This document shows positions 1-64,000 of a DNA stretch of 64,000 nt, one piece after another. The number at the start of each line of letters is the position of its first letter. Position 1 is the first letter of the stretch. The notes below the pieces were generated by a model. It searched no databases. It saw only the letters and a program-made list of their open reading frames with translations, and was not told the DNA's origin. Both the position numbers and the translations under genes were made by a program. Source of the stretch: an uncultured Rhodospirillales bacterium (GTDB lineage Bacteria > Pseudomonadota > Alphaproteobacteria > Rhodospirillales > UBA2165); the NCBI GenBank assembly GCA_913055735.1, contig CAJXKD010000001.1, positions 1,520,281-1,584,280 on the forward strand. Reading direction: 5' to 3'.

Positions 1-114
1 ACTCTCCGTCATCGAGAACTCCGGTTTATTGAGAGTGGCAGGCGACGGCGGCGGTATAGCAAACCGTCCGGGAGTGGGCCAGCCGGAATCTTTACGAAAC
101 TCTTTGGGAGCGCA

Positions 115-2019
115 CTACTCGGCAGCCGAGGCTTTTGCCGAAACGGATCGGGCGCCCTGGTATTCGGGGACCAGGGTCTTGGTTGCAGCCATCACGCGGT
201 CGATGTTTTCTTCCTTGCAGGCGACATCGATGCTTTGGAGTTCCGCCTCGACCGCCGGCAGCGGCATGGTGCGCGGCAACGCAAGGAGCAGCCCTTCGCA
301 CCGCGTGGGCACCAGAGGTTCGCCGCCGTGGAAAATCTCCTCGAAAAGTTTCTCCCCGGGGCGTAATCCGATGAAGTCGATCTTCACATCTTCGTCGACG
401 CGCAGACCGGCAAGCCGGATCATCTGTTTGGCAAGATCGACGATCTTTACCGGCTCACCCATATCCAACACGAAAATCTCGCCGTTTCCGGCTTCCGTTT
501 GGCTGCCGAGGGCCGAGGCCTGGAGCACGAGTTCCACCGCTTCACGAATGGTCATGAAGTACCGCTTCATATCGGGATGGGTAACGGTCAAGGGGCCGCC
601 CTTGGCAAGCTGTTCGCGGAACAACTCCACGACCGATCCCGTCGATCCGAGAACATTGCCGAACCTAACCGTGATGAACTCCGGATCGGTTTCCTTGCGC
701 GCGGCGTTGAGCGCCTGGCAATAGATTTCCGCGATCCGCTTCGATGCACCCATCATGCTGGTGGGGTTGACGGCTTTGTCGGTCGAAATCTGAACAACGG
801 CGCGTACACCCGCATCGCGGCTGGCATCGGCAACATTCTTAGTGCCGATCACGTTGGTCGCCATACCCTCGAATACGTTCGTCTCGACCAGGGGAACGTG
901 TTTAAGCGCCGCCGCATGGAAGACGAGCTCCGGGCGTTCATCGGCAAATATTTTCGTGATGCGGGTGCGGTCCCGGACGTCTGCAATCAAGGACGTTCGG
1001 GCCAAGTGGGGCCATTTTTCGTCGACTTCCCGGTCGATGTTGAACAAGTTGTATTCGGACGCGTCTATCAGGATCAGGTGCGCCGGACCGAGATCGGATA
1101 TTTGGCGTACGAGCTCGCTGCCGATACTGCCGCCGGCGCCGGTTACCAGAACGCGTCTGTCCTTAATCAAGGCACGGACGGGCTCGCGGTTAAGCGCCTT
1201 TTGGGGGCGTCCGAGCAAGTCTTCGACGTCGACCGGTCTAACTTCGATCGCGCCGTCAACGCTTTTGCGGAAGTCCGTCAGTGCGGGCATGCGTGCGAGG
1301 GTCATGCCCAGCGAGTCGCAGTCCTGCAGCAGTTTTTGGAGTTGGATGCCGTCGAACGTATCCGCGGTGACGATAACCCGGCTTGGTTTTTGCGCGCGCC
1401 TTTCCAATTGTTTGACGATCGTGGCAATGTCGTCGACGGTACCCATCACTTGAACATCGTGAATACCCCTGCCAACCCGGCCCCCGGTGCGCGCGACGAT
1501 ACCGACGACGTGGTAGTTGGCGCCCGGGCGATTCATCGCCCGGATGAACATCTCCGCGCCATCGCCGGCACCGGCCAACAAGACGGGGACACGCGTGTCC
1601 CCTTCGCGGTAAAGAGACCAATCGAGCCCCCGGTCCTTGAACAGCCGATAAATAAACCGCGGCCCGCCGAGAAGCGCGATCAGAATGAACCAATTGATAA
1701 CCGGGAGGGATCGCGGCAAATCTTCGAGCCGCGTGGTTGCGAACATGATCACGACGAAAATCAAAACGGCGAGACTGGCGGACTTGGTGATGGTGATCAG
1801 GTCCGGCAGAGAGGCATAGCGCCAGACGCCGCGGTACATGCGCATCGACCAGAAAACGGATGCCGATACCAGGGTGAACACGATGGTCCCCAGAACCAGC
1901 ATTTGCATGTCGTAATAGATGATCGCGTCGCCGACCCTGAGATACATGGACAGGACAAACGCGACCGCGGCCATGATGACATCATGGGCAAAAGCAACAT
2001 AAGCGCGGTTGACGTTCAT
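115..2019 (-). CDS. Membrane-anchored nucleotide-sugar 4,6-dehydratase, CapD/WbpM/PglF family
   Basis: 634-aa ORF with ATG start. Hydrophobic N-terminal helices are followed by the Rossmann motif VLVTGAGGSIGSEL and the MGASKRIAE catalytic region typical of CapD/WbpM/PglF proteins. Confidence 0.9.
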   Translation of the reverse strand: MNVNRAYVAFAHDVIMAAVAFVLSMYLRVGDAIIYYDMQMLVLGTIVFTLVSASVFWSMRMYRGVWRYASLPDLITITKSASLAVLIFVVIMFATTRLEDLPRSLPVINWFILIALLGGPRFIYRLFKDRGLDWSLYREGDTRVPVLLAGAGDGAEMFIRAMNRPGANYHVVGIVARTGGRVGRGIHDVQVMGTVDDIATIVKQLERRAQKPSRVIVTADTFDGIQLQKLLQDCDSLGMTLARMPALTDFRKSVDGAIEVRPVDVEDLLGRPQKALNREPVRALIKDRRVLVTGAGGSIGSELVRQISDLGPAHLILIDASEYNLFNIDREVDEKWPHLARTSLIADVRDRTRITKIFADERPELVFHAAALKHVPLVETNVFEGMATNVIGTKNVADASRDAGVRAVVQISTDKAVNPTSMMGASKRIAEIYCQALNAARKETDPEFITVRFGNVLGSTGSVVELFREQLAKGGPLTVTHPDMKRYFMTIREAVELVLQASALGSQTEAGNGEIFVLDMGEPVKIVDLAKQMIRLAGLRVDEDVKIDFIGLRPGEKLFEEIFHGGEPLVPTRCEGLLLALPRTMPLPAVEAELQSIDVACKEENIDRVMAATKTLVPEYQGARSVSAKASAAE

Positions 2020-2127
2020 TTGCCGGTCAATCTTCCTGCTTGGTTTTCGGTCCCGTCGGCGTAACGGAAGTTAGCACACCCGGACAGGGACGCCATACTA
2101 TTGGTTTTCCTCAGGGAATCCCGTGTC

Positions 2128-3096
2128 TTAAGGCTGGGAACGGAACCAAGCCACCGTTTTGGAGAGCCCGCTATCAAATGTTTCGGGCGGCGCCCACCCC
2201 AGGAAAGAGCGGATTTTCCGGTCATTCAGGACCAGCGTTCCGGTAAGTCGCTGGATTTGATCCCTTTTGCCGGTCACGGTACCGAGGAGCCCAAGCAGGC
2301 TTCGGGGGGCGTTCATCAAGCGGGGCGGGCGTCCCAATTTCCCGCGAATGCGGCGGATCAGCTCCGCTGTGGAGACCGGCTCGCCGTCGCTGACGAAAAA
2401 GGCCTCGCCCGCTGCCTTCGGGTGCTCGGCGGCGACGGCGATGGCATCGCCAAGGTTATCCGCCGAGATCAGGCTGCGTTTATTGGCGACAGCGCCAAAG
2501 GGCAACGGAAACGGCGTATCGCAGAGGCGAAGCAAGGCAAGGAAATTTCCTTTGACGTGCGGTCCGTAAACCAATGGGGGGCGCAGGATTACGGTTTCCA
2601 GCCGCGACGACCGGGTGATGTCCGCCAACACCTGCTCCGCTTCCAGCTTGCTGATCCCATAAGCGTCTTCGGGAGCCGGTGGGGTGGTTTCATCGAGGCC
2701 GTCGGTGCTGCTGGTTTCTCCGATCGCTTTGACCGAGCTCAGAAATACCAGGCGTTTTACGCCCGCTGCGACGGCCGCTTCCGCCAACCGGCGGGTGCCG
2801 TCGACATTGACGCGCAGGTAGTCGGCCAAGAGGGTTCCTTGTGGGTCGCGTGCCTTGTCGGTCATGACATGGGTGCGCGCGGCGAGATGGACGATGATAT
2901 CGGCGCCGGCGACGGCCCGCGACCAATCCATGTCCGGACCGAATTCCGGCACCACGTAGAGAGGCGTTCCTTCCGGCCCGGCCCGGTGGGCGGTGTTACG
3001 TGTTGTGCCTGAAAGAAGATGGCCGCGCTTCCGCAACGCCATACAGACGGCATGGCCGACGAACCCATTGGCGCCCGTAATGAGTACCCTGCTCAT
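2128..3096 (-). CDS. NAD-dependent sugar epimerase/dehydratase (extended SDR, GalE/WbpK-like)
   Basis: 322 aa. N-terminal ITGANGFVGHAV glycine-rich motif and YGISK (YxxxK). ATGA start/stop overlap with the upstream gene at 3093-3096. Confidence 0.75.
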   Translation of the reverse strand: MSRVLITGANGFVGHAVCMALRKRGHLLSGTTRNTAHRAGPEGTPLYVVPEFGPDMDWSRAVAGADIIVHLAARTHVMTDKARDPQGTLLADYLRVNVDGTRRLAEAAVAAGVKRLVFLSSVKAIGETSSTDGLDETTPPAPEDAYGISKLEAEQVLADITRSSRLETVILRPPLVYGPHVKGNFLALLRLCDTPFPLPFGAVANKRSLISADNLGDAIAVAAEHPKAAGEAFFVSDGEPVSTAELIRRIRGKLGRPPRLMNAPRSLLGLLGTVTGKRDQIQRLTGTLVLNDRKIRSFLGWAPPETFDSGLSKTVAWFRSQP

Positions 3097-4364
3097 TGAG
3101 CCGCCGACAAGGTATCGACGGCGCGGGCGGCATGGTTTCCCTCACCTCCGGCCGCCTGTTCGTAGACAGTGAGCACCTTCCGCGCCTGGGCCTCGCGGCT
3201 ATGGCGGGGCGCCGCCGCCAGCGCCGCTGCGGCAAGGCGCGCGCGTAACTCGCTATCGGTGGCGAACTTTAGGGCCGCCTCCGCGAGCGCGTCGGCATCT
3301 TCGGCGGCGACAACCAGGCCGGCATTCTCACCGGCAACGATCGCGCTTGCTTCACCGGCGGGGGCGGCGAGGAGGATGGGGAGACCCATGGCCATCGCTT
3401 CGAAGATCTTCGACGGAATGACCCCGGCGAAGACGGAAGAATTCTTGAGATGGACCAGGGCAACGTCGCATAGGCTCCATACCGCGGGCATGGCGCTTTT
3501 GGGTTGCGATGGCATGAAGACGATATTCGTCAGGTTTCGGCGCTTTGCTTCGGCAATAAGGTGATCGCGCTCGGCTCCGGCACCGGCAAGAAGGAAGCGG
3601 ATATTGTCCCGATCGCGAAGCTTCTCGGCGGCATCGAGGACATTGCCGAGGGCGTGTGCCATGCCGTGGGTGCCGACATATCCGATGACGAATTTGCCGG
3701 TGAGTCCCCATTTTTCGGCTAGTTCCGGATCGCGCGTTTGCGGGCTATAGCGGGACGTGTCGACCCCGTTGATGACGACCGCGATCTTGCCGGGATCGAT
3801 CCCGCGTGAGACGAGGTTTGTCTTGAAGGATTTAGTAAGGGCGATGATCGACGCGGATTGCCGGTAAAGAAACAACTCGAGCTTTTCCAGCGACCGGATC
3901 GCGATACCCCGCTTCATAGCGCCGACCGCTTCGATGGAGACCGGCCATAAATCACCAAGTTCGAAGACGAAGGGAACGCGGCGCAAGGCGCCCACCAACC
4001 ATCCCGCAACGGCGGAGAAAAATTGCGGCGATGTTGCCGTGACGATGTCGGGACGTTGCTGGGCCAGTGCCCCTATGGTGCCGGTGACGAGGAAACTGAG
4101 AAAGTCGAATGTTCGACGCGTCACGCCGCGGTTTGCGGCGATGTAGGTTTTGACCCGCACGACACGAATGCCGTCCATCTCTTCCGTTTGATACCACCGG
4201 TTCCGGTAGCCATCGAACAACTTGCCATGGGGAAAGTTCGGCGCACAGGTAACGACGGTAACCTCATGTCCCCATTTCGCCCAATAGACGGCCCGTTCAT
4301 AGACGCGGGTGGCGGCGGCATTGGTTTCCGGCGGAAAATTCTCGGTCAGGAAAAGGATTTTCAT
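3093..4364 (-). CDS. Glycosyltransferase family 4 (GT-B), WbuB-like
   Basis: 423 aa. The N-terminus MKILFLTENFPPETNAAATR and the C-terminal SKIFEAMAMGLPIL (E-x7-E region) are typical of WbuB-type GT4 enzymes. ATGA overlaps on both sides. Confidence 0.75.
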   Translation of the reverse strand: MKILFLTENFPPETNAAATRVYERAVYWAKWGHEVTVVTCAPNFPHGKLFDGYRNRWYQTEEMDGIRVVRVKTYIAANRGVTRRTFDFLSFLVTGTIGALAQQRPDIVTATSPQFFSAVAGWLVGALRRVPFVFELGDLWPVSIEAVGAMKRGIAIRSLEKLELFLYRQSASIIALTKSFKTNLVSRGIDPGKIAVVINGVDTSRYSPQTRDPELAEKWGLTGKFVIGYVGTHGMAHALGNVLDAAEKLRDRDNIRFLLAGAGAERDHLIAEAKRRNLTNIVFMPSQPKSAMPAVWSLCDVALVHLKNSSVFAGVIPSKIFEAMAMGLPILLAAPAGEASAIVAGENAGLVVAAEDADALAEAALKFATDSELRARLAAAALAAAPRHSREAQARKVLTVYEQAAGGEGNHAARAVDTLSAAQ

Positions 4365-5371
4365 GCCGTGGCTCCCTTGCGCCAGGGGCCGACGAGATAA
4401 ATCAACAGCAGGACAACCATGATGCCGGCCCCGACGAGGGCCGGCAGAGGGTCACTGATCGAAAGGGAGGCAAGGCCGATCAGCACCAGATTGCAGATGG
4501 CAATTGCCGAGGAAACCGCCGCATGGCTTTTGCCTGCCTGTACCGCGCGTTGATAGAAATGATTGCGGTGGGCTTGCCATACACGCTCACCGCGTACGGC
4601 ACGCCGGATCAGCGTAATTGTCGCATCGACTAAATAATAGAGGGGCAGGATAAGTGCCGCGGCCCATTGCCCCTCCGCGGCCAACCGCAACAAGAGCCAG
4701 CCGAGCAAGAATCCGAGGGGGATGCTGCCGATATCCCCGAGGAAGATACGCGCCGGATGCCAATTCCACTTGAGAAAACCGATGGCCGCGCCCGCCATCA
4801 CCGCGCCGGCAAGGCCGAGTTCTTGTGTCGTTGCGGTCACGCCGAAAATCAGTGCTGACCCAAGACCGATGGAAACCGTTTCGACTCCCGCGATCCCATC
4901 GATGCCGTCCATGAAATTGAATAGGTTTATGAACCAAATCCACAGCAAAAGGGCGGCGATCCGATCCAGGATGCCGGGCAACAAACCTTGAAATATGGGG
5001 GAGGATGGCGGGACGGCCGCGAGGACAAGGCCGGCGGCGGCGATATGCGCCAAAAGCCGCCATTTCGGGGCGATACCGCCGGTGTCGTCTTTCCAGGAAA
5101 TCCAGGCGAGGCCGATGGCGGCGCCGATCAAACAGACGAGTTCTGTTTGAAAGGAGTCGGGACTATTGAGCGCATAAGCAGCGATCCAGCCCAGAAATAT
5201 GATGGGAATGATCGCCCAGCCGCCGCCACGAACCGTGGGTTCTTCGTGGCTGGAGCGTTCATTCGGAACGTCCAGTATGGCCCGGTCGGCGAGCCGTTGC
5301 CGAACGAACCCGGTGGCGATGAGCGCAAGGACGGCGGAGAGCCCAAACGCGATGACGAAGCCGACGATCAT
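4361..5371 (-). CDS. Polyprenol-phosphate:HexNAc-1-phosphate transferase (WecA/WbpL/MraY superfamily), initiating enzyme
   Basis: 336 aa, hydrophobic throughout (about 10 helices). Carries the signature NLFNFMDGIDGIAG. Confidence 0.85.
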   Translation of the reverse strand: MIVGFVIAFGLSAVLALIATGFVRQRLADRAILDVPNERSSHEEPTVRGGGWAIIPIIFLGWIAAYALNSPDSFQTELVCLIGAAIGLAWISWKDDTGGIAPKWRLLAHIAAAGLVLAAVPPSSPIFQGLLPGILDRIAALLLWIWFINLFNFMDGIDGIAGVETVSIGLGSALIFGVTATTQELGLAGAVMAGAAIGFLKWNWHPARIFLGDIGSIPLGFLLGWLLLRLAAEGQWAAALILPLYYLVDATITLIRRAVRGERVWQAHRNHFYQRAVQAGKSHAAVSSAIAICNLVLIGLASLSISDPLPALVGAGIMVVLLLIYLVGPWRKGATA

Positions 5372-5439: not shown

Positions 5440-6405
5440 TTATGTCGGTTCGGATTGCCCATCCAACTGCACTTGGCAGTCAGCGAGGATACGGACAACG
5501 TCGACGCCGAGCGCGAGGCTCCTACCCGCTTTGTGACCGTTGGTCGCCCCATTGATCGCGCGGCAGAATTCTTCGACGGCGACGGTTAGGGGCAACGCAT
5601 CGTCGAGGGCAATGGGCTTGGGGCCCTCCCCTTTGTCTTCGACCAATTTGTTGTTACCGACATCGTCATATATCCAGACGCCGTCATCCGTCCGGACCTC
5701 GAAACGCCGCATTTTTCGGGGCAACATGTTGGATACCCGGATATCTGCTGCAATATCGCGTTCGAATGTCAGTTCGATCGCAACGCTTTCTCCGATGCCG
5801 TCGACCAGAGACTGCAGTTCCGTACGCCGGGCGGTGATGGTGGTCGGGTAAAGGCCGAGAAGTGCGAGAATCATCGCCACATCGTGGCTCGCCCAGTCCC
5901 AAAGGACGGGAACGTTGGTTCTAAACGGCCCCCGATTTCCGGCAGCGCTTGAAATGCTGACGGAGCTTGTTGTGCTCGACATGGATCGCCGTTTCAGTTC
6001 TCGGAACGCCGGGCTGAAAAGGTGGGTGTGGTCGACGACGACCAACCCGTCTTGGCTCCGTTGAAGATCCAATAGGCGCTCCGCCTGCCCGATATCCATC
6101 GTCAGGGGTTTTTCCACCAAAACCGGCTTGCGGCTCAAAATGGCCGCTTCGGCCATCTCGGCATGCAACGCGGGCGGCGTGGCGATGATGACACCGTCGA
6201 GGTCGGATCGGGCAATGAGCGTATGCCAATCTTGCGTCATGACGCAGGAAGGTTCGACCAAGGACGCGGTCACCGGATTGCGGCTGGCAATGGCGCGCAG
6301 TTCGATGCCGGGTAGGTCTTGTATCGTTTGGATATAAGCCCTGCCCCAACGGCCGGCCCCGATCAGGCCCAGTTTCACGGGAGGGCTGATCGCAGAAGCG
6401 TTCAT
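5440..6405 (-). CDS. Gfo/Idh/MocA family sugar oxidoreductase
   Basis: 321 aa. N-terminal dinucleotide fold KLGLIGAGRWG and the conserved VLVEKP segment. Confidence 0.7.
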   Translation of the reverse strand: MNASAISPPVKLGLIGAGRWGRAYIQTIQDLPGIELRAIASRNPVTASLVEPSCVMTQDWHTLIARSDLDGVIIATPPALHAEMAEAAILSRKPVLVEKPLTMDIGQAERLLDLQRSQDGLVVVDHTHLFSPAFRELKRRSMSSTTSSVSISSAAGNRGPFRTNVPVLWDWASHDVAMILALLGLYPTTITARRTELQSLVDGIGESVAIELTFERDIAADIRVSNMLPRKMRRFEVRTDDGVWIYDDVGNNKLVEDKGEGPKPIALDDALPLTVAVEEFCRAINGATNGHKAGRSLALGVDVVRILADCQVQLDGQSEPT

Positions 6406-6415
6406 CGTCTGCGGG

Positions 6416-7477: not shown

Positions 7478-7479
7478 GG

Positions 7480-56516: not shown

Positions 56517-57398
56517 CTAACCTAGTGCCTCATTCTGAATTTTGGCTAAGCCCTCGGCCAACTCCAAATAGCGAAAATCGGGAAAGGCCTCTTGTGTTGC
56601 TTGATTATTGAATGCCCTAAAGCCGTTGTGGGGCATCGGTCCGGTGCGAGGTGTGCCTTTTACCGTCACTGAAGGTTCCGATAAATCCGCGATCATCTCG
56701 GCGATCTTCCTAAAGGATATGACGTGGCCCGTAACCGCATTCAGCACGCCTTGGCTTCTATGCCAGGCAATAAGCCTGATCAACTCTGCCACATCGTTAA
56801 CATGTACGTGGTCGCGACGTTCCTCGCCTTCGCCAAACAAAACAATATCCTCGCCTTGTTCCGCAAGTCGTCGGAATTTGTTGGGACCGTAACCATTGTG
56901 CGGATCTTCGGCTCCATAAATCAAAGTAGGGCGCAAGATCGCGAGCGGGCAGTCCACGGCGTCCTTTAGCATGACCTCGCGCGTAAGGTGCATAATGCCA
57001 TGTAAGGAACTTGGCTCGGCACAAGAAGACTCGTCCAAAAGTTCCATGCTGTCTCTATAGACAGCATCTGAGCTGACATACATCACGTGCGCTGGGGATG
57101 AGCGTTCAAGCGCGCCGGAGACCGCCTCCATCATCTTGATGTTGCTAACTAGCATTGACGTATTCTTGCAAGGTGCTTCGGCAGCGATGATCAACACGGT
57201 ATCATCTGGCTCAATAGACTCCGAAAGGCGATCGCCGGCCCCTTGCGCAAGAAGGTCGATTTCTTGGCGACCAAGCGCAAGGACCGGCGTTCCTTCGCCA
57301 TCGAACGCTGTTCGTGCAGCTTTTCCGACAAAGCCGGCCGCGCCCAGTATGACAACTCTCGTGGGTCGGCGAAGGGGCCTGTTTAAGTGCTCAAGCAT
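56517..57398 (-). CDS. NAD-dependent sugar epimerase/dehydratase/reductase (SDR)
   Basis: 293 aa. Motif RVVILGAAGFVGKAA. 8-nt overlap with the upstream gene. Confidence 0.65.
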   Translation of the reverse strand: MLEHLNRPLRRPTRVVILGAAGFVGKAARTAFDGEGTPVLALGRQEIDLLAQGAGDRLSESIEPDDTVLIIAAEAPCKNTSMLVSNIKMMEAVSGALERSSPAHVMYVSSDAVYRDSMELLDESSCAEPSSLHGIMHLTREVMLKDAVDCPLAILRPTLIYGAEDPHNGYGPNKFRRLAEQGEDIVLFGEGEERRDHVHVNDVAELIRLIAWHRSQGVLNAVTGHVISFRKIAEMIADLSEPSVTVKGTPRTGPMPHNGFRAFNNQATQEAFPDFRYLELAEGLAKIQNEALG

Positions 57399-58695
57399 GT
57401 TGTTTTCGTGCAGTCGCGTCGATTTTTGATGGTGGTTTGCCGAGCGTAAAATGATCCAGTCCGGCGTCGATTAATTTTCCGGACTGCCATATACCGTATG
57501 GATCTATGACTGTCCGACCCCGCATGCGTTGGGCCAAATCGTGGGGGTCGATTTCTCGGTAAGCTGGCCACGGCGTCATCACCGCAACGGCATCCGTATT
57601 TTCGCAAGCTTCCAAGGGGTCGTTCGTGACATCGCAGGAAATATCAGCTTCTTCTGCGGTCACGATGGGATCGTGCGCTTTGACGTTGCATTTCTCTAGA
57701 TTCTTTAACAGGCTCAAAGCGGGGGAGTTCTTTGTGCTGTGTGTGTTCTCTTTGTAGGCGAGGCCCAGAATGCCGACGTCGGGATTGCAGTTCTCGTTCA
57801 GAACCTCGCGCTTCAGCGTTTCCCAAACCCAATCGCGCCGTCGCTGGCTATTGACGAGCCAGGCCTCAATGAGACTGCCGTCGGTGTCGTGCCTTTTCGC
57901 TAAGGTAGCTACCGTCGCGAGGTCGCGCTCCAGATTGCCCCCGGCCAGTCCTAATCCCGGTTTGAGATAACTGAATTGCCCGATCCGGCGGTCGAGTTTC
58001 AAGGCCGGAACGATCTCTGACCAATCGGCTTCAATCTGTTCGCAAATTTCCGCCATCATGTTGGCGACGCTGACCGAAGCAACCAGGCACATATTGATCG
58101 AGATTTTCGCCAGTTCGGCACTCTCATAACGCATTGGTAAAATGGGGCATTCGAACGCCGATAGAAAAGCTTCTAACCTTGGATCGATCGGTTCGTGGGG
58201 ATTGCCGCAACCGACGATAATCCGTTCGGGTTTGAGTGCCCTAGTTATGGCTTGGCCGAATACCAGGGTCTCGACTTGATAGTATAAACGTGTAGGCGAA
58301 CAGCCGATGCCACGCGTGAAACCCGGCGGCACTTGGCAGAGAATGACCAGCAAAGCATCCTCACTGGCGTTGTCTTCGATCAAACGGAACATTCGTTCAA
58401 TCGTGCGTAAATCTCCTTTGCCGGAATCATCTGTCGGCACGTCTATCGACAGATACACGACGTCGCAGCGGCTTAAGTCGGTCGCATCGTTGGTAAAAGT
58501 GATGCGGGTGCGATTTGCCATTATGGTTTCGCTGAGGTCGGGTTCGCTGATGTGAAACCGGCCCGCCTTGAGGTCTTCGACGAGTTTCGGATCGTCATGA
58601 AAGCCGATCACGTCGAAGCCGCGTGCTGCAGCAGCGGCGGCAGAGCATAGACCCAAATGCGTCATTCCTGCGAAAGCAACAACGGGTCTGTTCAT
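57391..58695 (-). CDS. Nucleotide-sugar 6-dehydrogenase (UDP-glucose/GDP-mannose dehydrogenase family)
   Basis: MNRPVVAFAGMTHLGL from the ATG at 58695, which gives an ATGA overlap with the upstream stop, plus GLAYKENTHSTKNSPA. Confidence 0.8.
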   Translation of the reverse strand: MNRPVVAFAGMTHLGLCSAAAAAARGFDVIGFHDDPKLVEDLKAGRFHISEPDLSETIMANRTRITFTNDATDLSRCDVVYLSIDVPTDDSGKGDLRTIERMFRLIEDNASEDALLVILCQVPPGFTRGIGCSPTRLYYQVETLVFGQAITRALKPERIIVGCGNPHEPIDPRLEAFLSAFECPILPMRYESAELAKISINMCLVASVSVANMMAEICEQIEADWSEIVPALKLDRRIGQFSYLKPGLGLAGGNLERDLATVATLAKRHDTDGSLIEAWLVNSQRRRDWVWETLKREVLNENCNPDVGILGLAYKENTHSTKNSPALSLLKNLEKCNVKAHDPIVTAEEADISCDVTNDPLEACENTDAVAVMTPWPAYREIDPHDLAQRMRGRTVIDPYGIWQSGKLIDAGLDHFTLGKPPSKIDATARKQHA

Positions 58696-59657
58696 TGACA
58701 ACCCTTTTTCTCAGTCGTGCCGGTTAGTCCGGTTTGTCTTGCCAATGCGTTCAGCTTCCGACTGAGCCACAAGTCGTTGTCAAGTGTCGTTCCCGTCCCC
58801 TTTCTGCAAAGCTCAACGAAATGTACATATTCGGTCTCCCAAGTGGGATCCGTTTGTACGAGGCATACGGATTCTTCGGGCGGACGTCCGCTCGGAAGAA
58901 TTCTCGTCCGTCGTGTGAAAGTGCTCGGTCCCCATTTGCACAGACTGTCAATATGCGCGCTGCCATTCTCTGCGTAAATGTCGCAGGTGAAGTGATTGCG
59001 CCAACTGAGCATCGACATCTCGAGTTGGATTGCGGGATAACCTTCACCGGTAACGACGATATGATCGAATGCCCGGTTTTCGTGTCGATGGGCGCCTTGG
59101 ATACGGAAATCGACATTGAAACCGTCGCCGAACCAAAATCGCAGTGTATCCAGCAGGTGACTGCCAAGATCCGTAAGGACGCCGGCGCCTGTGTCGCGCC
59201 AGGCACTTTCACGTACCAAGCGGGCGGTACCATTCCCATAGAACATTCGCAGCGAGTAGATCTTTCCCAAGTCGCCGCTCGCAATGAGATCGCGCATTCT
59301 CACGAAATGAGGCTCAAACCTGTGATTGTACGCCGTGTAGCAAACGACATTGTTACGTTGGGCAAGCCTCGATAAGTCGCTAATTTCTTGCTCGTCGGAA
59401 CTAATGATCGGCTTTTCGACAAGCACATGCTTCCCGTTGCCAATAAGAAAGGAGAGCATGGCCAGTTTTTCGCCATCCGGCACACACAGCAATGCCGCGT
59501 CGTAGTCCGTCGATGGCACGTCGTAGAGGCTTTTGTAGGTGGCGCTATCAATTGCCGGGTCTACGGTCGCGACGATGTCGCTGCCGGCGACGCTCATCCT
59601 TTTCATCCCCTGCACACCCAATCCCACGATGACGATTCGTAACGATTTGGAATTCAT
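58692..59657 (-). CDS. Gfo/Idh/MocA family sugar oxidoreductase
   Basis: 321 aa. Motifs LRIVIVGLGVQG and HVLVEKP. Confidence 0.65.
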   Translation of the reverse strand: MNSKSLRIVIVGLGVQGMKRMSVAGSDIVATVDPAIDSATYKSLYDVPSTDYDAALLCVPDGEKLAMLSFLIGNGKHVLVEKPIISSDEQEISDLSRLAQRNNVVCYTAYNHRFEPHFVRMRDLIASGDLGKIYSLRMFYGNGTARLVRESAWRDTGAGVLTDLGSHLLDTLRFWFGDGFNVDFRIQGAHRHENRAFDHIVVTGEGYPAIQLEMSMLSWRNHFTCDIYAENGSAHIDSLCKWGPSTFTRRTRILPSGRPPEESVCLVQTDPTWETEYVHFVELCRKGTGTTLDNDLWLSRKLNALARQTGLTGTTEKKGCQ

Positions 59658-59664
59658 GACAGAG

Positions 59665-61218
59665 TTAGGCTCCGTAACCCGCCGTTTTTTCGATCTGATT
59701 GATACGACTCAGCACGTCTGCGGGTTTAACCGGAATATTGCCGTCATATTCGCATTCGCACGCGGCTGCGAACGACCCCAATATTGCCGCGATAACCGCG
59801 TTCTTGGTCGCCAACATGGATAGCGTGGCGTAGGCTAAAAGTGCGTCGCCTGCCCCAACCGCATCGACGACGGTTCGCGCGAAACTATCTATCGAAAAAT
59901 ACGTGACACCGTCTTCTTCGCTCGACGGAAAGGTCGCGAATACGCCGCGGTCCCCCAGTTTTAGGATGAGCAATCGGCATCCTGTCTCTCCCATTAGTGA
60001 ACCGGCAAGGCTGCCGACCGTCGAGTCCTGATCTGCGAGCGCAAACCGCGCTTCACGTTCGTTCGGTGTAATCAGATCGAAATCCTTGAACTCAGTGATA
60101 TTGCCCCATCTGCTCGCGACCTGACTATCGGCGACCTTATAGACGTCTGCCGGAATTGCGTCGGTTAAGACGGGTACGGTAAGCTGATTGAAAATTCCAT
60201 GGCGGAAATCGCTGAATACCACCGCGTCCGATTTTGTATTTTTCAAAGTCTCGCTCAGTTCCTCCAAAATCGTATCCGAGATGGACCGATTGTCGAGCGT
60301 ATCTACTTTGAGCAGCCGATATCCGCTAGCGATTATCGCGTTCTTGTTTGTTGTCGGCCGAGTTTGATCAATGATCGCTTTGCAGTCTATCCCCGCTTCC
60401 GTCAGGCCTTTTACGACGAAGTCTGCGTAGCGGTCCTTACCGAGTACAGTCGAGAACACGACCTCCGCACCTGCGGCGCGCATATGCTGGCAGACAATTC
60501 CGGCGCCGCCAATATAGTCGTCCTGCCCTAGGTATCGAACGCTAAACGTGGGTGTTTTGGTCTGGCCACCGATTAGAGACGTACGAGTGTAGCTGTCTAC
60601 GATGGTGTCGCCGAGAACATGGACCTTGAATCCCTTCATCTGATCGACGGCCTTTCTGAGGTCGTCAAAAGAAAGGCCATTTGAATGCATTAGGGACAAG
60701 AGCTTCTCGATTTGAAGAGCCGGCGGTGCAAGGTCGATCAGCTTTGAAGAGGAGTATACGACGTCCCCTGGCGTGAAAATCATCTCGCCGCCGTATCCCT
60801 CGACTAAATCCGCCTCTTCTTGCGTGGCAGGTGGAAGTCCGCCCCCCATATATTCGAAGCCTTTTGCGAAATAGTCCGGCTGCAAATAGTTTATGTTTTC
60901 TAGGGGTTTGGCATTGTGATCGATGATCACGTAGTCGACCATTTCGAACGCAGCAATGTTCAAGGCACGCAATCGTTCCGGCACATGTGGCCGATAGGTC
61001 CCTTTCTTAATATGCTTGTCGGCCGTGATGCTGGCAATCAGGATATCGGCTTTCGTCTTGGCGTAGGCTAAGTGGCGCACATGGCCGGGGTGCACGACGT
61101 CGAATACGCCATGACACATGATGACCTTTTTTTCACGCGGAAAGCCGCCAATGACTTTTTTCAGATCCTCACGATCGCGGAGTTTGAAGCTGTATTTTTC
61201 GAAGAATTCCGTGGTCAC
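59665..61218 (-). CDS. Bifunctional sugar-phosphate nucleotidyltransferase + PfkB sugar kinase (HldE/RfaE-like with inverted domain order)
   Basis: 517 aa with GTG start. The N-terminal CHGVFDVVHPGHVRHL...ITADKHIKKG..RP resembles RfaE domain II. The C-terminal VHVLGDTIVDSY...GGAGIV...DAVGAGDALLA resembles the PfkB/RfaE domain I kinase. First gene of the long operon. Confidence 0.7.
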   Translation of the reverse strand: MTTEFFEKYSFKLRDREDLKKVIGGFPREKKVIMCHGVFDVVHPGHVRHLAYAKTKADILIASITADKHIKKGTYRPHVPERLRALNIAAFEMVDYVIIDHNAKPLENINYLQPDYFAKGFEYMGGGLPPATQEEADLVEGYGGEMIFTPGDVVYSSSKLIDLAPPALQIEKLLSLMHSNGLSFDDLRKAVDQMKGFKVHVLGDTIVDSYTRTSLIGGQTKTPTFSVRYLGQDDYIGGAGIVCQHMRAAGAEVVFSTVLGKDRYADFVVKGLTEAGIDCKAIIDQTRPTTNKNAIIASGYRLLKVDTLDNRSISDTILEELSETLKNTKSDAVVFSDFRHGIFNQLTVPVLTDAIPADVYKVADSQVASRWGNITEFKDFDLITPNEREARFALADQDSTVGSLAGSLMGETGCRLLILKLGDRGVFATFPSSEEDGVTYFSIDSFARTVVDAVGAGDALLAYATLSMLATKNAVIAAILGSFAAACECEYDGNIPVKPADVLSRINQIEKTAGYGA

Positions 61219-61605: not shown

Positions 61606-63507
61606 ATGACGAATCCGATTCCGGCCAGAACGTATTTTATCTACGCAGCAATGGTGCTTGTTACGGCGACTATATTTCTCCTGAGACACCATGAAATTCA
61701 CGGCGAAAATTACTACTACTGGTTCTTTTCAAAGGCCTTTCTGGAAACGGGGCGTTTTCCTGTTTTTGACCGAAGCCCGATAACGGCCCTTTACTTGGCG
61801 CCGTTTGCGGCATTCGGCTTTCCCGTTGGCGTTACGGCAGAGTTTGTTTTTCGTTCTTTTGTGGTCGGTGCCGGCCTGTTCGTATTTCTTCGGTTACTGG
61901 TCGGTCCCACAATTGCCGTGTTCGGCGCTCTTCTTTGGCTACCGTATTTGGAGGATGCGGCACCCATGGGCCAAGGACTCGGTTTGGTATGCGTTTTGTT
62001 TGCCGTCTGGATCAGGGTTTGTCATCCCAATGTCCGGCTCTCGACCTTTTATGCCTTGCTCGTTTTGGCATACATGTTCCGCCTTGATTTCGCCGCGCTA
62101 ATCCTCCTGTTTGCGATATTTGATGCCGTCAATTTGTTCCTCCGGCGTGGACACCTGAACAATATCCTTGAGAGTTGTCGTCCCCGTCTATCGGACTGGC
62201 CTGTTGTTCTTGTTGTTGGATTGGTAGTTTGGTTCCTTGTCGCACAGTGGGATTCCCCATGGAACAATGCTTATGGACAGCCCGTTCCGTGGCTGCCTGT
62301 CGACAACCCAAAAAGTCTCGGCCAAGCGAATTTCATCCTGCTTCTGAACAACTGGGCGATCGCGCAGGCTGATATCCTGCCACCCGACTACGATATCTAT
62401 TTCACTCATGAAACATTGCTCGGTGGCTACAAGAACGTGTGGGGCATCGTCGTCCACAATGGCCCTCTTGTCGCTGCCCTCATCGATAAGAGCATCATTG
62501 AGTTGATCAAGGGGTGGGTTTGGATGACGTCCTTGCCGCGCGCGTACCTTTTCCCAAACCTGAGCATACTGAGTCACTTTACGGTTCTTCTCGTTATTTT
62601 CGGCGCCGCTTTCAGTAAGTGTGCCGACAGTCGTTCGCTCAAAAGCCTCTTGGCGATCTTCGTTCTTGGCCTGATTGCATTGAAGGTGCCGCAAATCTTC
62701 GGCGGTGGCGGATCCCTTCGACACTTCGGTGGAACGGTTCCGGTATTTTTGATGGCGGCTCTCGGCGTTGCGGCGGCTATAAGCCGAGTCCTGGACAGGG
62801 ATGAAAAAATCGATGCGTGGCTGCTTGTCGGCCTGCTTCTGATTAGCGGTTTCTATTTGATGGATCGCGTTCTCGCTTTCTTCGATGGGGCGGTGTCTTT
62901 TCCGGCGGTCCAAATGGGGCTTCTGTTGACGGTCCTTATCGCGATGTTGGTTGTTCGCTGGGGGCCCGATGTTTTGAGGCGCCTAAGCAGGCGTTGTGGC
63001 GCCCTGATTTCGGTCGTCTCCATTCTTGTTTTCGCGACGCCACACCTCACTTGGGGCCCCATATTTCGGGACTTGGCTCACGATATATACAATGGAAGTT
63101 TTTCGATAAATGAGTTGCGCGAAGGGGAAAGATCACCGCGGAGAATTGCAAAAACTGCGCTTCCGTTGATAAAAAATTGTGAAGGCATCCTTACGACAGA
63201 TGCGTTGTTCTTCGCTGCCTTTACGCCGCTTCCGATCGACAAGTTCCATTCCAGCTTTGAAATACCACCCTTCGGAAGCTTCGCAACGGGCGAACTCGGA
63301 AAACTAGACCCTGCTACCATCGACTGTCTTTTAATTCCGTCCTACCTCGAGAAAACCAAGGCAAATGCCATCAATCTGCAACGACGGTACCGCGAGTATA
63401 TATTGCCTTATGCGCGCCATCTGAAATCACTGGGAGCCCGAAGCTACAAGTTGCCCGATTACGGCGAAGTGATTGTCTTGAACGGACAGGCCCCGTCACC
63501 GGACTAA
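61606..63507 (+). CDS. Polytopic membrane protein, GT-C-fold-like glycosyltransferase (ArnT/PMT-like) candidate
   Basis: 633 aa with ATG start. About 13-14 hydrophobic helices plus a roughly 145-aa soluble C-terminal domain. The first loop GENYYYWFFSKAFLETGRFPV aligns by eye with the ArnT loop [21 protein letters not shown]. Confidence 0.4.
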   Translation: MTNPIPARTYFIYAAMVLVTATIFLLRHHEIHGENYYYWFFSKAFLETGRFPVFDRSPITALYLAPFAAFGFPVGVTAEFVFRSFVVGAGLFVFLRLLVGPTIAVFGALLWLPYLEDAAPMGQGLGLVCVLFAVWIRVCHPNVRLSTFYALLVLAYMFRLDFAALILLFAIFDAVNLFLRRGHLNNILESCRPRLSDWPVVLVVGLVVWFLVAQWDSPWNNAYGQPVPWLPVDNPKSLGQANFILLLNNWAIAQADILPPDYDIYFTHETLLGGYKNVWGIVVHNGPLVAALIDKSIIELIKGWVWMTSLPRAYLFPNLSILSHFTVLLVIFGAAFSKCADSRSLKSLLAIFVLGLIALKVPQIFGGGGSLRHFGGTVPVFLMAALGVAAAISRVLDRDEKIDAWLLVGLLLISGFYLMDRVLAFFDGAVSFPAVQMGLLLTVLIAMLVVRWGPDVLRRLSRRCGALISVVSILVFATPHLTWGPIFRDLAHDIYNGSFSINELREGERSPRRIAKTALPLIKNCEGILTTDALFFAAFTPLPIDKFHSSFEIPPFGSFATGELGKLDPATIDCLLIPSYLEKTKANAINLQRRYREYILPYARHLKSLGARSYKLPDYGEVIVLNGQAPSPD

Positions 63508-63906
63508 ATCGTCGAACGTTCTTTTCTCACGGATGTAGTCCGCTTCCGAATAGTGGTCCGAGGCCAGAACCAAGCAGATGCTATCCGCAATCATCGGGGT
63601 AATGACAAGCCATGACATGGGCGGAACGTAAAGTCCACGGTCCCTGGTATCGAGCAGAAACGAATCGATGCGCCCGCTAAACTCCAAATCGACGCGAAAC
63701 GAACCCGCCAGACAAATTAGGAACTGCTCCAGCTCCTTGTGTGCATGGCCGCCGCGTTCGATATCTGGAAGGCAGTCATATATATAGAAGACCCGCTTGA
63801 TTTCGAATGGAACGTGATCTCCGCATTCGGCCACACCCAGGGTGCCGCGCACCGGATCCCGGATTTCTGAAAGGGACACGAGCCGTGGTTCGAGAGTCGA
63901 CATCAT
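63496..63906 (-). CDS. FdtA/WxcM-like cupin (NDP-4-keto-6-deoxyhexose 3,4-ketoisomerase family)
   Basis: 136 aa from the ATG at 63906. Motifs RGTLGVAE, PFEIKRVFYIYD, ERGGHAHKELEQFLICLAGS and ASDHYSEADYIRE. 12-nt convergent overlap with the plus-strand gene. Confidence 0.8.
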   Translation of the reverse strand: MMSTLEPRLVSLSEIRDPVRGTLGVAECGDHVPFEIKRVFYIYDCLPDIERGGHAHKELEQFLICLAGSFRVDLEFSGRIDSFLLDTRDRGLYVPPMSWLVITPMIADSICLVLASDHYSEADYIREKRTFDDLVR

Positions 63907-64000
63907 TTGAATTCGTTCTCGGCTTCCAGGTCGTTCAACAGACGTCCCGTCAGGACGAGCCGCGCGCATAGGAAGTTGAACGGAACGACGAAAAACAATA
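63903..64000 (-). CDS. 3' end of an upstream minus-strand gene running off the right edge (product unknown, hydrophobic C-terminus)
   Basis: My hand translation gives an open frame from the window edge, ...LFFVVPFNFLCARLVLTGRLLNDLEAENEFK*. It ends in a TGA that forms an ATGA overlap with the FdtA-like start. It is too short for the ORF track. Confidence 0.35.
   Translation of the reverse strand, partial: LFFVVPFNFLCARLVLTGRLLNDLEAENEFK

What the first reader, a model, noticed from the sequence alone, without database searches (positions are those of the whole stretch)
1..64000. One continuous, nearly unidirectional ~59-gene glycan factory with pervasive translational coupling and no conventional Wzx/Wzy/Wzz or Wzm/Wzt
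Seen: coding density is close to total. Fifty-six of 59 genes are on the minus strand, arranged as three trains:
- 61218 down to 24663 (37 genes).
- 23540 down to 13117 (10 genes).
- 12015 down to 115 (11 genes).

At least ten junctions are ATGA start/stop overlaps (for example 3093, 4361, 29132, 31000, 32752, 33471, 34166, 36793, 58692 and 63903). Several more are GTGA/TTGA overlaps or direct abutments. The largest internal gaps in the 37-gene train are 211, 66 and 45 nt.

Recognisable contents:
- 1 initiating phosphoglycosyltransferase.
- About 7-8 glycosyltransferase-like proteins.
- 3 nucleotide-activation enzymes.
- 6 SAM methyltransferases.
- 2 radical SAM enzymes.
- A carbamoyltransferase, a sulfotransferase-like protein, 2 SGNH proteins and an ACP system.

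I could not find a multi-pass Wzx flippase, a Wzy polymerase, a Wzz/PCP, a Wza or a two-component Wzm/Wzt ABC transporter in the window.

Inference: this is an unusually large and chemically dense locus for a single glycan, or two glycans. Its assembly and export logic is not obvious from the standard paradigms.
Basis: partly seen in the sequence, partly recalled or inferred. Interest (0 to 1): 0.6.

Follow-up and report, generated by a model that had tools for sequence, protein, structure and literature searches.

The report
Giant antiterminator-led surface-sugar gene cluster
The window is the middle 64 kb of an ~88 kb, ~80-gene bacterial cluster for a heavily decorated surface polysaccharide; it is led by an RfaH-type anti-termination switch and does carry export and assembly genes, so it is a large example of a known kind of locus, not a new assembly logic.

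Summary
The raw observation holds. The window has 58 complete genes plus a partial GtrA gene, 56 of 59 on the minus strand, 97% coding, and ten ATGA overlaps. The first train has 33 genes, not 37.

The window is part of a metagenome contig, and the cluster runs about 24 kb beyond the right edge. The left edge meets housekeeping genes (purH).

The long train is headed, outside the window, by:
- a promoter-like site with two palindromes;
- a MarR-like regulator;
- an RfaH-like NusG paralog;
- a leader with a hairpin followed by TGCGGTAGCGTG, which matches 11 of 12 bases of the E. coli ops element.

The block TTCACCCGRA(G/C)TGCGGTAGC recurs after RfaH-like genes in three distant loci.

Assembly and export parts exist:
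- a WecA-family initiating enzyme (4361-5371);
- a fused ABC half-transporter matching PglK end to end (43181-45055);
- a Pfam-less GT-C fold glycosyltransferase (61606-63507) next to GtrA and an ArnC-like GT2;
- a Wzy-like membrane protein 18 kb outside the window.

No Wzx, Wzz, Wza, WaaL or Wzm/Wzt occurs in the 103 kb examined. The closest analogue is the MarR-led, 88-protein Leptospira rfb locus. Interest is moderate.

The parts
115..2019 (-). Last gene of the locus. Membrane-anchored (4 TM) PglF/WbpM-type UDP-sugar 4,6-dehydratase (Polysacc_synt_2).
   Evidence: Pfam E 1.7e-112. TM count. purH follows just beyond window position 1.
2128..4364 (-). SDR epimerase/dehydratase (2128-3096) and GT4 glycosyltransferase (3093-4364), joined by an ATGA overlap.
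4361..5371 (-). Initiating polyprenyl-phosphate N-acetylhexosamine-1-phosphate transferase (WecA/MraY family, about 9-11 TM).
   Evidence: Pfam Glycos_transf_4 E 2.9e-31. Weak match to the NCBIfam WecA model, far below its cutoff. TM count.
5440..12015 (-). Sugar-tailoring and transfer block: GFO oxidoreductase, SDR, sugar C-methyltransferase (7480-8724), cupin, GT2 (9261-9959), SAM methyltransferase, GT4 (10819-12015).
12084..13115 (+). Opposite-strand SGNH/AlgX-like putative O-acyl transferase/esterase with an N-terminal hydrophobic segment. It converges on the next train gene with a 1-nt gap.
13117..23540 (-). Ten-gene block: HAD, GT2-like, 2OG-Fe(II) oxygenase, 609-aa TIGR04326-like surface carbohydrate protein, radical SAM/SPASM, SDR, CMP-sugar cytidylyltransferase-like (19710-20477), FkbM methyltransferase, FAD oxidoreductase, SAM methyltransferase.
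23583..24629 (+). Opposite-strand FemAB-like Acetyltransf_6 protein.
24663..27507 (-). SDR epimerase (24663-25586), a 211-nt gap, then the PFTS-motif polysaccharide biosynthesis protein (25798-27507).
   Evidence: TIGR04417 scored 123 bits against a cutoff of 100.
27512..32181 (-). Acyl-donor module: DUF4910/DUF2172 aminopeptidase-like protein, 82-aa acyl carrier protein (28887-29135), FkbH-domain loader (29132-31003), MaoC dehydratase fused to SDR (31000-32181).
   Evidence: FkbH model TIGR01686 scored 298.7 bits against a cutoff of 146.65.
32183..43180 (-). Pseudaminic-acid-type nonulosonic acid module: GNAT, PseF-like CMP transferase, WbqC, GH130/BNR-like, methyltransferase, NeuB/PseI-family synthase (35780-36796), PseG-like, class-III aminotransferase, aldo-keto reductase, PseC (40077-41267), PseB (41282-42277), RmlD-like reductase.
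   Evidence: PseB scored 509.6 bits (cutoff 407.75) and PseC 463.8 (cutoff 423.5). PseF, PseI and PseG fall below their cutoffs.
43181..45055 (-). Fused ABC half-transporter (6 TM plus NBD). Candidate flippase or exporter for the lipid-linked glycan, of PglK/Wzk/MsbA type.
   Evidence: Pfam ABC_membrane + ABC_tran. Full-length match to PglK/WlaB, PDB 5c73, E 3e-61. The MsbA, PglK and HepA NCBIfam models all score below cutoff. A similar 610-aa ABC protein sits in the related P0181 locus.
45089..51353 (-). Decoration enzymes: sulfotransferase-like, SGNH-like with N-terminal TM, O-carbamoyltransferase (47763-49397), B12-binding radical SAM methyltransferase-like (49464-51353).
51357..61218 (-). 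Second sugar-nucleotide block: RmlD-like reductase, WbuC cupin, TIGR04372 glycosyltransferase, split transketolase pair, methyltransferase, epimerase, UDP-sugar dehydrogenase-like, GFO oxidoreductase, and an HldE-like kinase/nucleotidyltransferase with swapped domain order (59665-61218).
61606..63507 (+). Opposite-strand 633-aa GT-C fold glycosyltransferase from an uncharacterised family with no Pfam model. Predicted periplasmic transferase of the three-part module.
   Evidence: No Pfam or NCBIfam hit. 226 family representatives. AF2 model has pLDDT 91.2 and pTM 0.91. Foldseek ranks 1-19 are all GT-C enzymes, including AglB, ArnT (TM 0.46/0.52), EmbB, PglB, Pmt4 and PimE.
63496..63906 (-). FdtA-type 3,4-ketoisomerase, part of the dTDP-3-amino-3,6-dideoxyhexose pathway that continues outside the window.
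   Evidence: Pfam FdtA E 1.2e-40. Gene call.
63903..64000 (-). 3' end of the GtrA-family small membrane protein gene, cut by the window edge.
   Evidence: PF04138 on the 146-aa product in L002/L131.

Best explanation
The window is the central and 3' part of one surface-polysaccharide biosynthesis supercluster of about 88 kb and about 80 genes. The product is most likely an LPS O-antigen or a related envelope glycan. The host appears to be an alphaproteobacterium of the Rhodospirillales type; this rests only on named homologs.

Transcription (inferred):
- A sigma-70-like promoter flanked by two 15-bp palindromes drives a MarR-like regulator and an RfaH-like NusG paralog.
- The 131-nt leader after the RfaH-like gene carries a stable hairpin followed at once by an ops-like site, TGCGGTAGCGTG.
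- RNA polymerase pauses there, loads the RfaH-like factor, and becomes resistant to termination.
- It can then read about 80 kb of tightly packed, often overlapping genes, including through four embedded opposite-strand genes.

Assembly (inferred from family membership):
- A WecA-family PNPT starts the glycan on undecaprenyl phosphate.
- About 7 cytoplasmic glycosyltransferases extend it. The sugars come from a pseudaminic-acid-type pathway with an FkbH/ACP acyl donor, an NDP-heptose-like pathway and others.
- Methyl-, carbamoyl-, sulfo- and acyl-transferases decorate it.
- The fused PglK/Wzk-like ABC half-transporter moves the lipid-linked product across the inner membrane.
- In the periplasm a Wzy-like protein, encoded upstream of the regulator pair, may polymerise it.
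- A GtrA + ArnC-like GT2 + GT-C module adds a dTDP-derived 3-acetamido-3,6-dideoxyhexose.

Shown: gene content, family and fold assignments, the conserved cis-element, and the locus boundaries. Inferred: the transcript structure, the substrate of each enzyme, the role of the ABC protein, and the final acceptor.
For: Locus extent:
- purH, SIS, MFS and GDH genes lie beyond window position 1.
- On the right, FdtA, GtrA, GT2, RmlA/B, a heptose-type block, an AsnB-like enzyme and an O-methyltransferase follow. Then come RfaH-like, MarR-like, Wzy-like, heparinase-like, and carbamoyltransferase/DUF5989/SxtJ genes. RsmB and housekeeping genes come after that.
- Locus GC is 54%, against 58-63% in the flanks.

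RfaH-like factor:
- TIGR01955 E 9e-32. It scores better than the UpxY, NusG and LoaP models.
- The best PDB match is E. coli RfaH, and the H20/R23/Q24 equivalents are conserved.

ops-like site:
- It matches 11 of 12 ops bases and is the only CGGTAGC-type site in a leader.
- An invariant block TTCACCCG-A-TGCGGTAGC lies just downstream of the RfaH-like gene in L135, L136 (Rhodospira trueperi) and L138. The rest of those leaders is unalignable.
- The hairpins are stable, -21 to -26 kcal/mol, z -2.1 to -4.0.
- The hairpin stems differ between loci by changes that keep pairing. This was read by eye.

Assembly and export parts:
- ABC protein, with a similar ABC protein in the related P0181 locus.
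- GT-C fold.
- GtrA, and a GT2 with two C-terminal TM helices whose best matches are PgfS and ArnC.
- Wzy-like protein: weak hits to TIGR04370 and NF046084. 19 of 42 family members hit PF14296. It sits next to a Wzx in L138 and a Wzy_C protein in L137.
- PseB and PseC score above curated cutoffs.

Other:
- Terminator-like sites are not enriched: 18 found against 18.1 expected.
- The Leptospira rfb locus gives a precedent: MarR at the 5' end, 88 proteins, and ABC TM region proteins (PMC10958091).
Against: - There are no transcript data. The four embedded opposite-strand genes and gaps of 211 and 387 nt could hold internal promoters.
- A match to the ops pattern with at most 1 mismatch is expected about 3.6 times per strand in 103 kb by chance. 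The case therefore rests on position and cross-locus conservation, not on the match itself.
- The RfaH-like protein scores below NCBIfam's RfaH cutoff (110 against 144.5). It lacks the equivalents of E. coli K10 and R73.
- The ABC protein is below cutoff for PglK, MsbA and HepA, so its substrate is unknown.
- The Wzy-like protein itself has no Pfam hit and only E ~1e-6 NCBIfam matches.
- No ligase (WaaL), chain-length regulator or outer-membrane exporter was found. The acceptor and the glycan class are therefore unproven.
- Only 103 kb of a genome larger than 2.5 Mb was seen.
Confidence: 0.62

Rival explanations
1. The region is a mosaic of two or more independent glycan systems that merely sit side by side. 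One example would be an O-antigen plus a separate Pse-based protein (flagellin, pilin or S-layer) glycosylation island plus a serotype-converting Gtr-like module. Each would have its own promoters.
For: - There are two CMP-transferase-like genes and at least three separate sugar-nucleotide pathways.
- Pse pathways are classically linked to flagellin glycosylation (general knowledge).
- The Gtr-like module is the only strain-variable part: replaced or 93% identical, against 99.9% elsewhere.
- Gaps of 211 and 387 nt and the opposite-strand genes break the train.
Against: - No flagellin, Maf (DUF115) or OTase gene occurs in the 103 kb.
- There is a single initiating PNPT and a single ops-like leader.
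- The convergent junctions of 1, 33 and -12 nt leave no room for terminators.
- Related loci also put Pse-type genes directly behind the RfaH-like gene.
Confidence: 0.3
2. This is a conventional Wzx/Wzy pathway whose Wzx, Wzz and WaaL genes lie elsewhere in the genome. The fused ABC protein would then be unrelated to flipping the glycan; it might be an MsbA-like lipid exporter or an exporter of another product.
For: - A Wzy-like protein is present.
- The homologous locus L138 has a Polysacc_synt_3 Wzx beside the Wzy-like gene.
- The best NCBIfam score of the ABC protein is to MsbA, at 283 bits.
- Only 103 kb of the genome was inspected.
Against: - The ABC gene abuts its neighbours inside the biosynthetic train, with 0-nt and 33-nt junctions.
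- It scores far below the MsbA cutoff of 602 bits.
- A similar fused ABC protein sits inside the related P0181 glycan locus.
- PglK-type ABC flippases can replace Wzx (PMC2841628).
Confidence: 0.3
3. One reading: the locus uses an assembly and export logic that lies outside all standard paradigms.
For: - No Wzx, Wzz, Wza, WaaL, KpsMT or Wzm/Wzt occurs in 103 kb.
- The GT-C family has no Pfam model.
Against: Every step has a candidate from a known family: PNPT, PglK-like ABC, Wzy-like, and GtrA/GT2/GT-C.
Confidence: 0.08

Closest known systems
Leptospira rfb (O-antigen) locus
   Same: - It is a very large, densely packed LPS locus. The paper reports 88 proteins in L. interrogans serovar Lai.
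- A MarR-family regulator sits at the 5' end, followed by many methyltransferases and glycosyltransferases.
- ABC transporter transmembrane-region proteins are common in it (PMC10958091).
- Several proteins here hit NCBIfam surface-carbohydrate families: TIGR04326, TIGR04417, TIGR04372, TIGR04366, TIGR04371 and TIGR04370. TIGR04326 carries a Leptospira locus tag in its name (O_ant_LIC13510).
   Different: - The host here is a different phylum. Named RfaH-like homologs are from Rhodospirillales.
- This locus adds an RfaH-like factor and an ops-like leader.
- No Wzx was found in the 103 kb examined.
[quoted passage not shown]
RfaH/ops (JUMPStart) control of long LPS, capsule and conjugation operons in Enterobacteria
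   Same: - A NusG paralog whose best match is RfaH.
- An 11 of 12 match to GGCGGTAGnnTG on the coding strand of the leader of a long polysaccharide operon.
- The equivalents of H20, R23 and Q24 are conserved.
   Different: - The factor is encoded at the head of its own target operon, paired with a MarR-like gene.
- The first ops base is T.
- A conserved hairpin with the TTCACCCGRAG arm directly precedes the site.
- The equivalents of K10 and R73 differ.
- The putative target is about 80 kb.
- RfaH genes are already known in Alphaproteobacteria, at 18% of rfaH genes (PMC7593976).
Helicobacter pylori Wzk / Campylobacter jejuni PglK route (WecA or PglC + GTs + ABC flippase + ligase or OTase)
   Same: - A WecA-family initiating enzyme.
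- A fused ABC half-transporter homologous to PglK over its whole length.
- No Wzx (PMC2841628).
   Different: - No WaaL or PglB was found nearby.
- A Wzy-like protein is present.
- The ABC protein scores below NCBIfam's PglK cutoff, 246.6 against 1000.
Three-component periplasmic glycosylation systems (GtrA/GtrB/GtrC; ArnC/ArnE-F/ArnT)
   Same: - A GtrA-family protein.
- A GT2 with two C-terminal TM helices whose best matches are PgfS and ArnC.
- A GT-C fold enzyme, with ArnT the best TM-score match.
   Different: - The GT-C belongs to an undescribed family: no Pfam hit and 226 representatives.
- The neighbouring pathway predicts a dTDP-3-acetamido-3,6-dideoxyhexose donor, not glucose or Ara4N.

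Membership tests
Wzx/Wzy-dependent polysaccharide pathway | Initiating phosphoglycosyl or PNPT transferase on Und-P | tested here: met
   4361-5371 hits Glycos_transf_4 at E 2.9e-31 and has about 9 TM helices.
Wzx/Wzy-dependent polysaccharide pathway | MOP-family Wzx flippase (Polysacc_synt families) | tested here: not met
   None is present among the proteins of the 103 kb examined. The rest of the genome was not seen.
Wzx/Wzy-dependent polysaccharide pathway | Wzy repeat-unit polymerase | tested here: inconclusive
   The 510-aa membrane protein lies outside the window, at window-equivalent 82.1-83.6 kb. It gives E ~1e-6 to TIGR04370 and NF046084 and has no Pfam hit itself. However, 19 of 42 homologs hit PF14296.
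Wzx/Wzy-dependent polysaccharide pathway | Wzz/PCP chain-length regulator and Wza/OPX exporter | tested here: not met
   Neither was found in the 103 kb (same calls).
ABC-transporter-dependent (Wzm/Wzt or KpsMT) pathway | ABC2_membrane permease plus a separate ATPase | tested here: not met
   Absent here. They are present in the Rhodospira trueperi counterpart L136.
PglK/Wzk-type ABC flippase route | Fused ABC_membrane+ABC_tran half-transporter homologous to PglK, encoded within a glycan locus | tested here: met
   residues 31-586 align to PglK residues 21-561, E 3e-61.
PglK/Wzk-type ABC flippase route | Orthology to PglK (NCBIfam NF050066 cutoff) | tested here: not met
   246.6 bits against a cutoff of 1000. 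MsbA scores 283 against 602.
PglK/Wzk-type ABC flippase route | Flipping of Und-PP-linked glycan | not testable with these tools
   This needs genetics or biochemistry.
RfaH/ops antitermination | NusG paralog closest to RfaH | tested here: inconclusive
   TIGR01955 is the best model (E 9e-32), but the score of 110 is below the 144.5 cutoff. The best PDB match is RfaH.
RfaH/ops antitermination | ops element on the non-template strand of the operon leader | tested here: met
   TGCGGTAGCGTG lies in the 131-nt leader and is conserved in three distant loci.
RfaH/ops antitermination | ops-contacting residues (E. coli K10, H20, R23, Q24, R73; this list is from memory) | tested here: inconclusive
   The H, R and Q equivalents are conserved. 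The K10 equivalent is H and the R73 equivalent is V.
RfaH/ops antitermination | Fold-switching C-terminal domain and an anti-termination effect | not testable with these tools
   No test was possible.
GT-C glycosyltransferases | GT-C membrane fold with a periplasmic C-terminal domain | tested here: met
   The model has pLDDT 91. Foldseek ranks 1-19 are all GT-C enzymes, and ArnT gives prob 1.00 and TM 0.52.
GT-C glycosyltransferases | Conserved acidic residue in the first periplasmic loop | tested here: inconclusive
   E34 is nearly invariant. A conserved DRSP motif (D55-P58) falls between helix 1 and the short helices of the model. No catalytic test was done.
Pseudaminic acid pathway | PseB and PseC | tested here: met
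   509.6 bits (cutoff 407.75) and 463.8 bits (cutoff 423.5).
Pseudaminic acid pathway | PseH, PseG, PseI, PseF | tested here: inconclusive
   PseF scores 178 against 205.7, PseI 250 against 340, and PseG 68.8 against 153.55. The GNAT protein matches no model.
Flagellin glycosylation island | Maf/DUF115 transferase and flagellin genes nearby | tested here: not met
   Neither occurs in the 103 kb.

The most novel reading that the evidence does not exclude
The locus is a true hybrid assembly line. A PglK/Wzk-type ABC flippase replaces Wzx and feeds a Wzy-like polymerase. The whole ~80 kb train is one RfaH-dependent transcription unit, launched from an alphaproteobacterial hairpin-plus-ops element. 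That would be the longest RfaH-type operon described. An undescribed GT-C family performs the final periplasmic decoration.
Probability: 0.2. Interest if true: 0.6.

Novelty: new member of a known kind. Interest (0 to 1): 0.38.

Why it matters
If the model is right, the locus would matter in four ways:
- It would be a clean natural test case for how far an RfaH-type factor can carry RNA polymerase, here about 80 kb and through antisense genes.
- It defines a conserved alphaproteobacterial ops variant with an attached hairpin that could be searched genome-wide.
- It points to a Wzx-less route in which an ABC half-transporter may serve a Wzy-like polymerase.
- It adds an uncharacterised GT-C family to the set of periplasmic glycan-modifying enzymes.

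For genome annotation, the practical lesson is that the missing export genes were partly present in unfamiliar forms and partly just outside the window.

Tried and rejected
- **Scans for the window's own genome.** The metagenome contigs and genome-contig scans found only relatives at 62% identity or less. The organism could not be named directly. Paper searches for the sample and run ids found nothing.
- **ABC protein look-up.** The exact-sequence look-up failed, probably because the gene was called with a different start.
- **Structure of the 633-aa protein.** The single-sequence AF2 model was useless, at pLDDT 42. It was replaced by an alignment-based model.
- **Sequence searches against PDB.** Searches with the 633-aa protein and with the Wzy-like protein or its profile found nothing.
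- **Canonical ops.** The canonical E. coli ops (GGCGGTAG) is absent from the train strand. Relaxed matches are at chance frequency, so only position and conservation count as evidence.
- **Extra ops-like sites.** No second copy of the conserved 20-mer occurs in the window, and no other CGGTAGC-type site lies in a leader.
- **Rfam.** There were no hits in the window or the head region.
- **Promoter and terminator scans.** Counts were at or below shuffle expectation. They neither support nor exclude internal signals.
- **Flagellin-glycosylation island.** This was considered and rejected because no Maf or flagellin genes are present.

Full report
**1. Observation**

I curated 58 complete genes between 115 and 63906, plus the 3' end of a GtrA gene at the right edge.
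- Fifty-six of the 59 genes are on the minus strand. The three plus-strand genes are 12084-13115, 23583-24629 and 61606-63507.
- Coding density is 97%.
- Of 51 same-strand junctions, 15 overlap and 15 more are 0-15 nt apart.
- The largest gaps are 211, 108, 86, 74 and 71 nt.
- The first train has 33 genes, not 37.
- This degree of overlap is normal for operons (general knowledge).
- The inventory of enzyme classes is correct.
- Only four proteins are polytopic: the PglF-like dehydratase (115-2019), the PNPT (4361-5371), a fused ABC exporter (43181-45055) and a 633-aa protein (61606-63507).

**2. Where the window sits**

- Exact-protein look-ups place the window, reversed, on JGI contig Ga0207829_100072 (195 kb). 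They also place it on a 2.5 Mb NCBI contig.
- To the left, the cluster ends at 115. purH, a SIS protein, an MFS transporter and a 1608-aa GDH follow.
- To the right, the cluster continues for about 24 kb.
- I joined the pieces into a 103,491-bp sequence without conflicts. The locus has 54% GC, against 58-63% in the flanks.

In transcription order, the part outside the window reads as follows:
- SxtJ-like, DUF5989, carbamoyltransferase, heparinase II/III-like, and a 510-aa membrane protein.
- A 148-nt gap, then a MarR-like regulator and an RfaH-like NusG paralog.
- A 131-nt gap, then a NanM-like O-methyltransferase, an AsnB-like amidotransferase, SIS, HAD, a transaldolase-like protein and two SDRs.
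- An opposite-strand SGNH protein.
- RmlB, RmlA, a DegT aminotransferase, a hexapeptide acetyltransferase, a GH130-like protein, a GT2, a FemAB-like protein, a methyltransferase, GtrA and FdtA. The window follows.

**3. The head of the train**

The RfaH-like factor:
- The 175-aa NusG paralog matches NCBIfam RfaH best, at E 9e-32 and 110 bits (cutoff 144.5). It scores ahead of UpxY, NusG and LoaP.
- Its best PDB match is E. coli RfaH. The residues aligned to H20, R23 and Q24 are conserved; those aligned to K10 and R73 are not.

The leader:
- The 131-nt leader after the gene reads CACTTCGGG-N11-CCCGAAGTG followed by CGGTAGCGTG. That gives TGCGGTAGCGTG, an 11 of 12 match to the E. coli ops GGCGGTAGnnTG.
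- Such a match is not rare by itself: about 3.6 are expected per strand in 103 kb.
- It is, however, the only such site in a leader.
- The block TTCACCCG-A-TGCGGTAGC is invariant just downstream of RfaH-like genes in three other loci. These are L135 (a MAG; its RfaH-like protein is 49% identical), L136 (Rhodospira trueperi; 46% identical) and L138. The rest of those leaders does not align.
- All four leaders fold into a hairpin that ends at the ops-like site, at -21 to -26 kcal/mol and z -2.1 to -4.0.
- The stems differ by pair-preserving changes: T-A versus C-G, and C-G versus G-C. I read these from the sequences.

Upstream of the MarR-like gene:
- There is a promoter-like TTGACG-18-TATGTT.
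- It is flanked by the palindromes GTTCACAGTGTGAAC and GTTCACACTGTGAAC.

RfaH genes are already known in Alphaproteobacteria (PMC7593976).

**4. Assembly and export parts**

The ABC protein (43181-45055):
- It is a fused ABC_membrane+ABC_tran half-transporter.
- It aligns end to end with PglK/WlaB, at E 3e-61.
- It is below the ortholog cutoffs for MsbA, PglK and HepA.
- A similar 610-aa ABC gene lies in the related glycan locus that carries the 62%-identical RfaH-like gene.

The 633-aa protein (61606-63507):
- It has no Pfam or NCBIfam hit and only one close relative in the word-indexed search.
- A full HMMER search found 226 family representatives.
- None of 81 aligned members has a convincing Pfam match.
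- An alignment-based AF2 model reached pLDDT 91.2.
- Foldseek ranks 1-19 are all GT-C enzymes, including AglB, ArnT, EmbB, PglB, Pmt4, PimE and DPY19. ArnT has the best TM-score.
- Its neighbours are GtrA and a GT2 with two C-terminal TM helices and best matches to PgfS and ArnC. They sit beside a dTDP-3-amino-3,6-dideoxyhexose pathway made of RmlA/B, FdtA, an aminotransferase and an acetyltransferase.
- Together these form a three-part periplasmic glycosylation module.

The 510-aa protein upstream of the regulator pair:
- It has weak Wzy-type matches.
- Nineteen of 42 of its homologs hit PF14296 O-ag_pol_Wzy.
- Homologs sit next to a Wzx in L138 and next to a Wzy_C protein in L137.

No Wzx, Wzz, Wza, WaaL, KpsMT or Wzm/Wzt is encoded in the 103 kb.

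**5. Sugar chemistry**

- PseB (41282-42277) and PseC (40077-41267) pass curated cutoffs.
- PseF-, PseI/NeuB- and PseG-like genes are present below cutoff.
- An ACP, an FkbH loader and a MaoC-SDR protein (28887-32181) suggest an unusual N-acyl group. This is inference.
- 59665-61218 is an HldE-like kinase/nucleotidyltransferase with swapped domain order. Together with the SIS, HAD and transaldolase-like genes outside the window, it suggests an NDP-heptose-type sugar.
- Several proteins match the NCBIfam surface-carbohydrate families TIGR04326, TIGR04417, TIGR04372 and TIGR04366.

**6. Relatives**

- A sister strain (Ga0207716_100003) is 99-100% identical over window 1-12 kb, over 51.6-64.3 kb, and over the housekeeping flank.
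- It has the same 63,392-bp distance from the GT-C gene to the last gene of the locus.
- The segment just right of the window is replaced: part of GtrA, a methyltransferase present only here, the FemAB-like gene and part of the GT2. The next 7 kb is only 93% identical.
- R. trueperi places Wzm/Wzt(+Wzt_C) behind its HTH + RfaH-like pair. This supports an O-antigen-type role for such loci.

**7. Comparison with known systems**

- The closest analogue in scale and layout is the Leptospira rfb locus: 88 proteins, MarR at the 5' end, and ABC TM-region proteins (PMC10958091).
- The PNPT + ABC logic resembles H. pylori Wzk and C. jejuni PglK (PMC2841628).
- The transcriptional logic is RfaH/ops.
- Each module belongs to a known kind.
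- The unusual points are the scale, the conserved hairpin+ops variant, the Wzx-less combination of a fused ABC protein with a Wzy-like protein, and the undescribed GT-C family.

**8. Limits**

- There are no transcript, genetic or structural-chemistry data.
- The organism is inferred only from named homologs.
- The rest of the genome was not inspected, so missing genes may lie elsewhere.

Noticed in passing
Outside the window, window-equivalent about 64.3-73.5 kb (L002 12701-21902 against L128): The Gtr-like decoration module is the only part that differs from the sister strain. About 2.2 kb is replaced, including a 350-aa methyltransferase present only here. The next 7 kb is 93% identical, against 99.9% elsewhere. 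This looks like a recombination or serotype-variation hotspot.
   Followed up: partly
Window 12084-13115, 23583-24629, 61606-63507, and an SGNH gene at window-equivalent about 72.3-73.6 kb: All four opposite-strand genes converge on the upstream train gene with 1, 33 and -12 nt spacing (the fourth was not measured), which leaves no room for terminators. Three of the four are predicted to act at or beyond the membrane: two SGNH proteins with N-terminal TM segments and the GT-C enzyme. This hints at separate control of late decoration steps.
   Followed up: partly
L133 11546-11583 (window-equivalent about 82.0 kb): Two near-identical 15-bp palindromes, GTTCACAGTGTGAAC and GTTCACACTGTGAAC, flank the -35-like TTGACG upstream of the MarR-like gene. 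They are likely operator sites.
   Followed up: no
Window 59665-61218: An HldE-like bifunctional enzyme has reversed domain order: the nucleotidyltransferase is N-terminal and the PfkB kinase is C-terminal.
   Followed up: partly
L133 5803-8271; also L137 7328-9767 and the P0181 locus: A triad of an SxtJ-like membrane protein, DUF5989 and a carbamoyltransferase recurs in three loci. It lies close to the Wzy-like gene in this locus and in L137. It also sits on the P0181 contig, an 88,229-bp contig that probably also carries a Wzy-like homolog. The window holds a second carbamoyltransferase at 47763-49397.
   Followed up: no
Window 61606-63507 (alignment A3): The GT-C family has two nearly invariant cysteines (C525, C574) and a WEIPPFG-like motif in the C-terminal domain. 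This is consistent with a disulfide-bonded periplasmic domain. It lacks the WWDxG motif of oligosaccharyltransferases, judged by eye.
   Followed up: partly
Window 61218-61606: The 387-nt divergent intergenic region between the HldE-like gene and the GT-C gene is the largest non-coding stretch in the window. It has no Rfam hit and no ops-like site. It may hold promoters for both directions.
   Followed up: partly
Whole window: Few start codons are preceded by a recognisable Shine-Dalgarno motif (crude GGAG/GAGG/AGGA/AAGG scan). Start-codon choices for several genes (for example 25798-27507, 31000-32181 and 52803-54059) are therefore uncertain.
   Followed up: no
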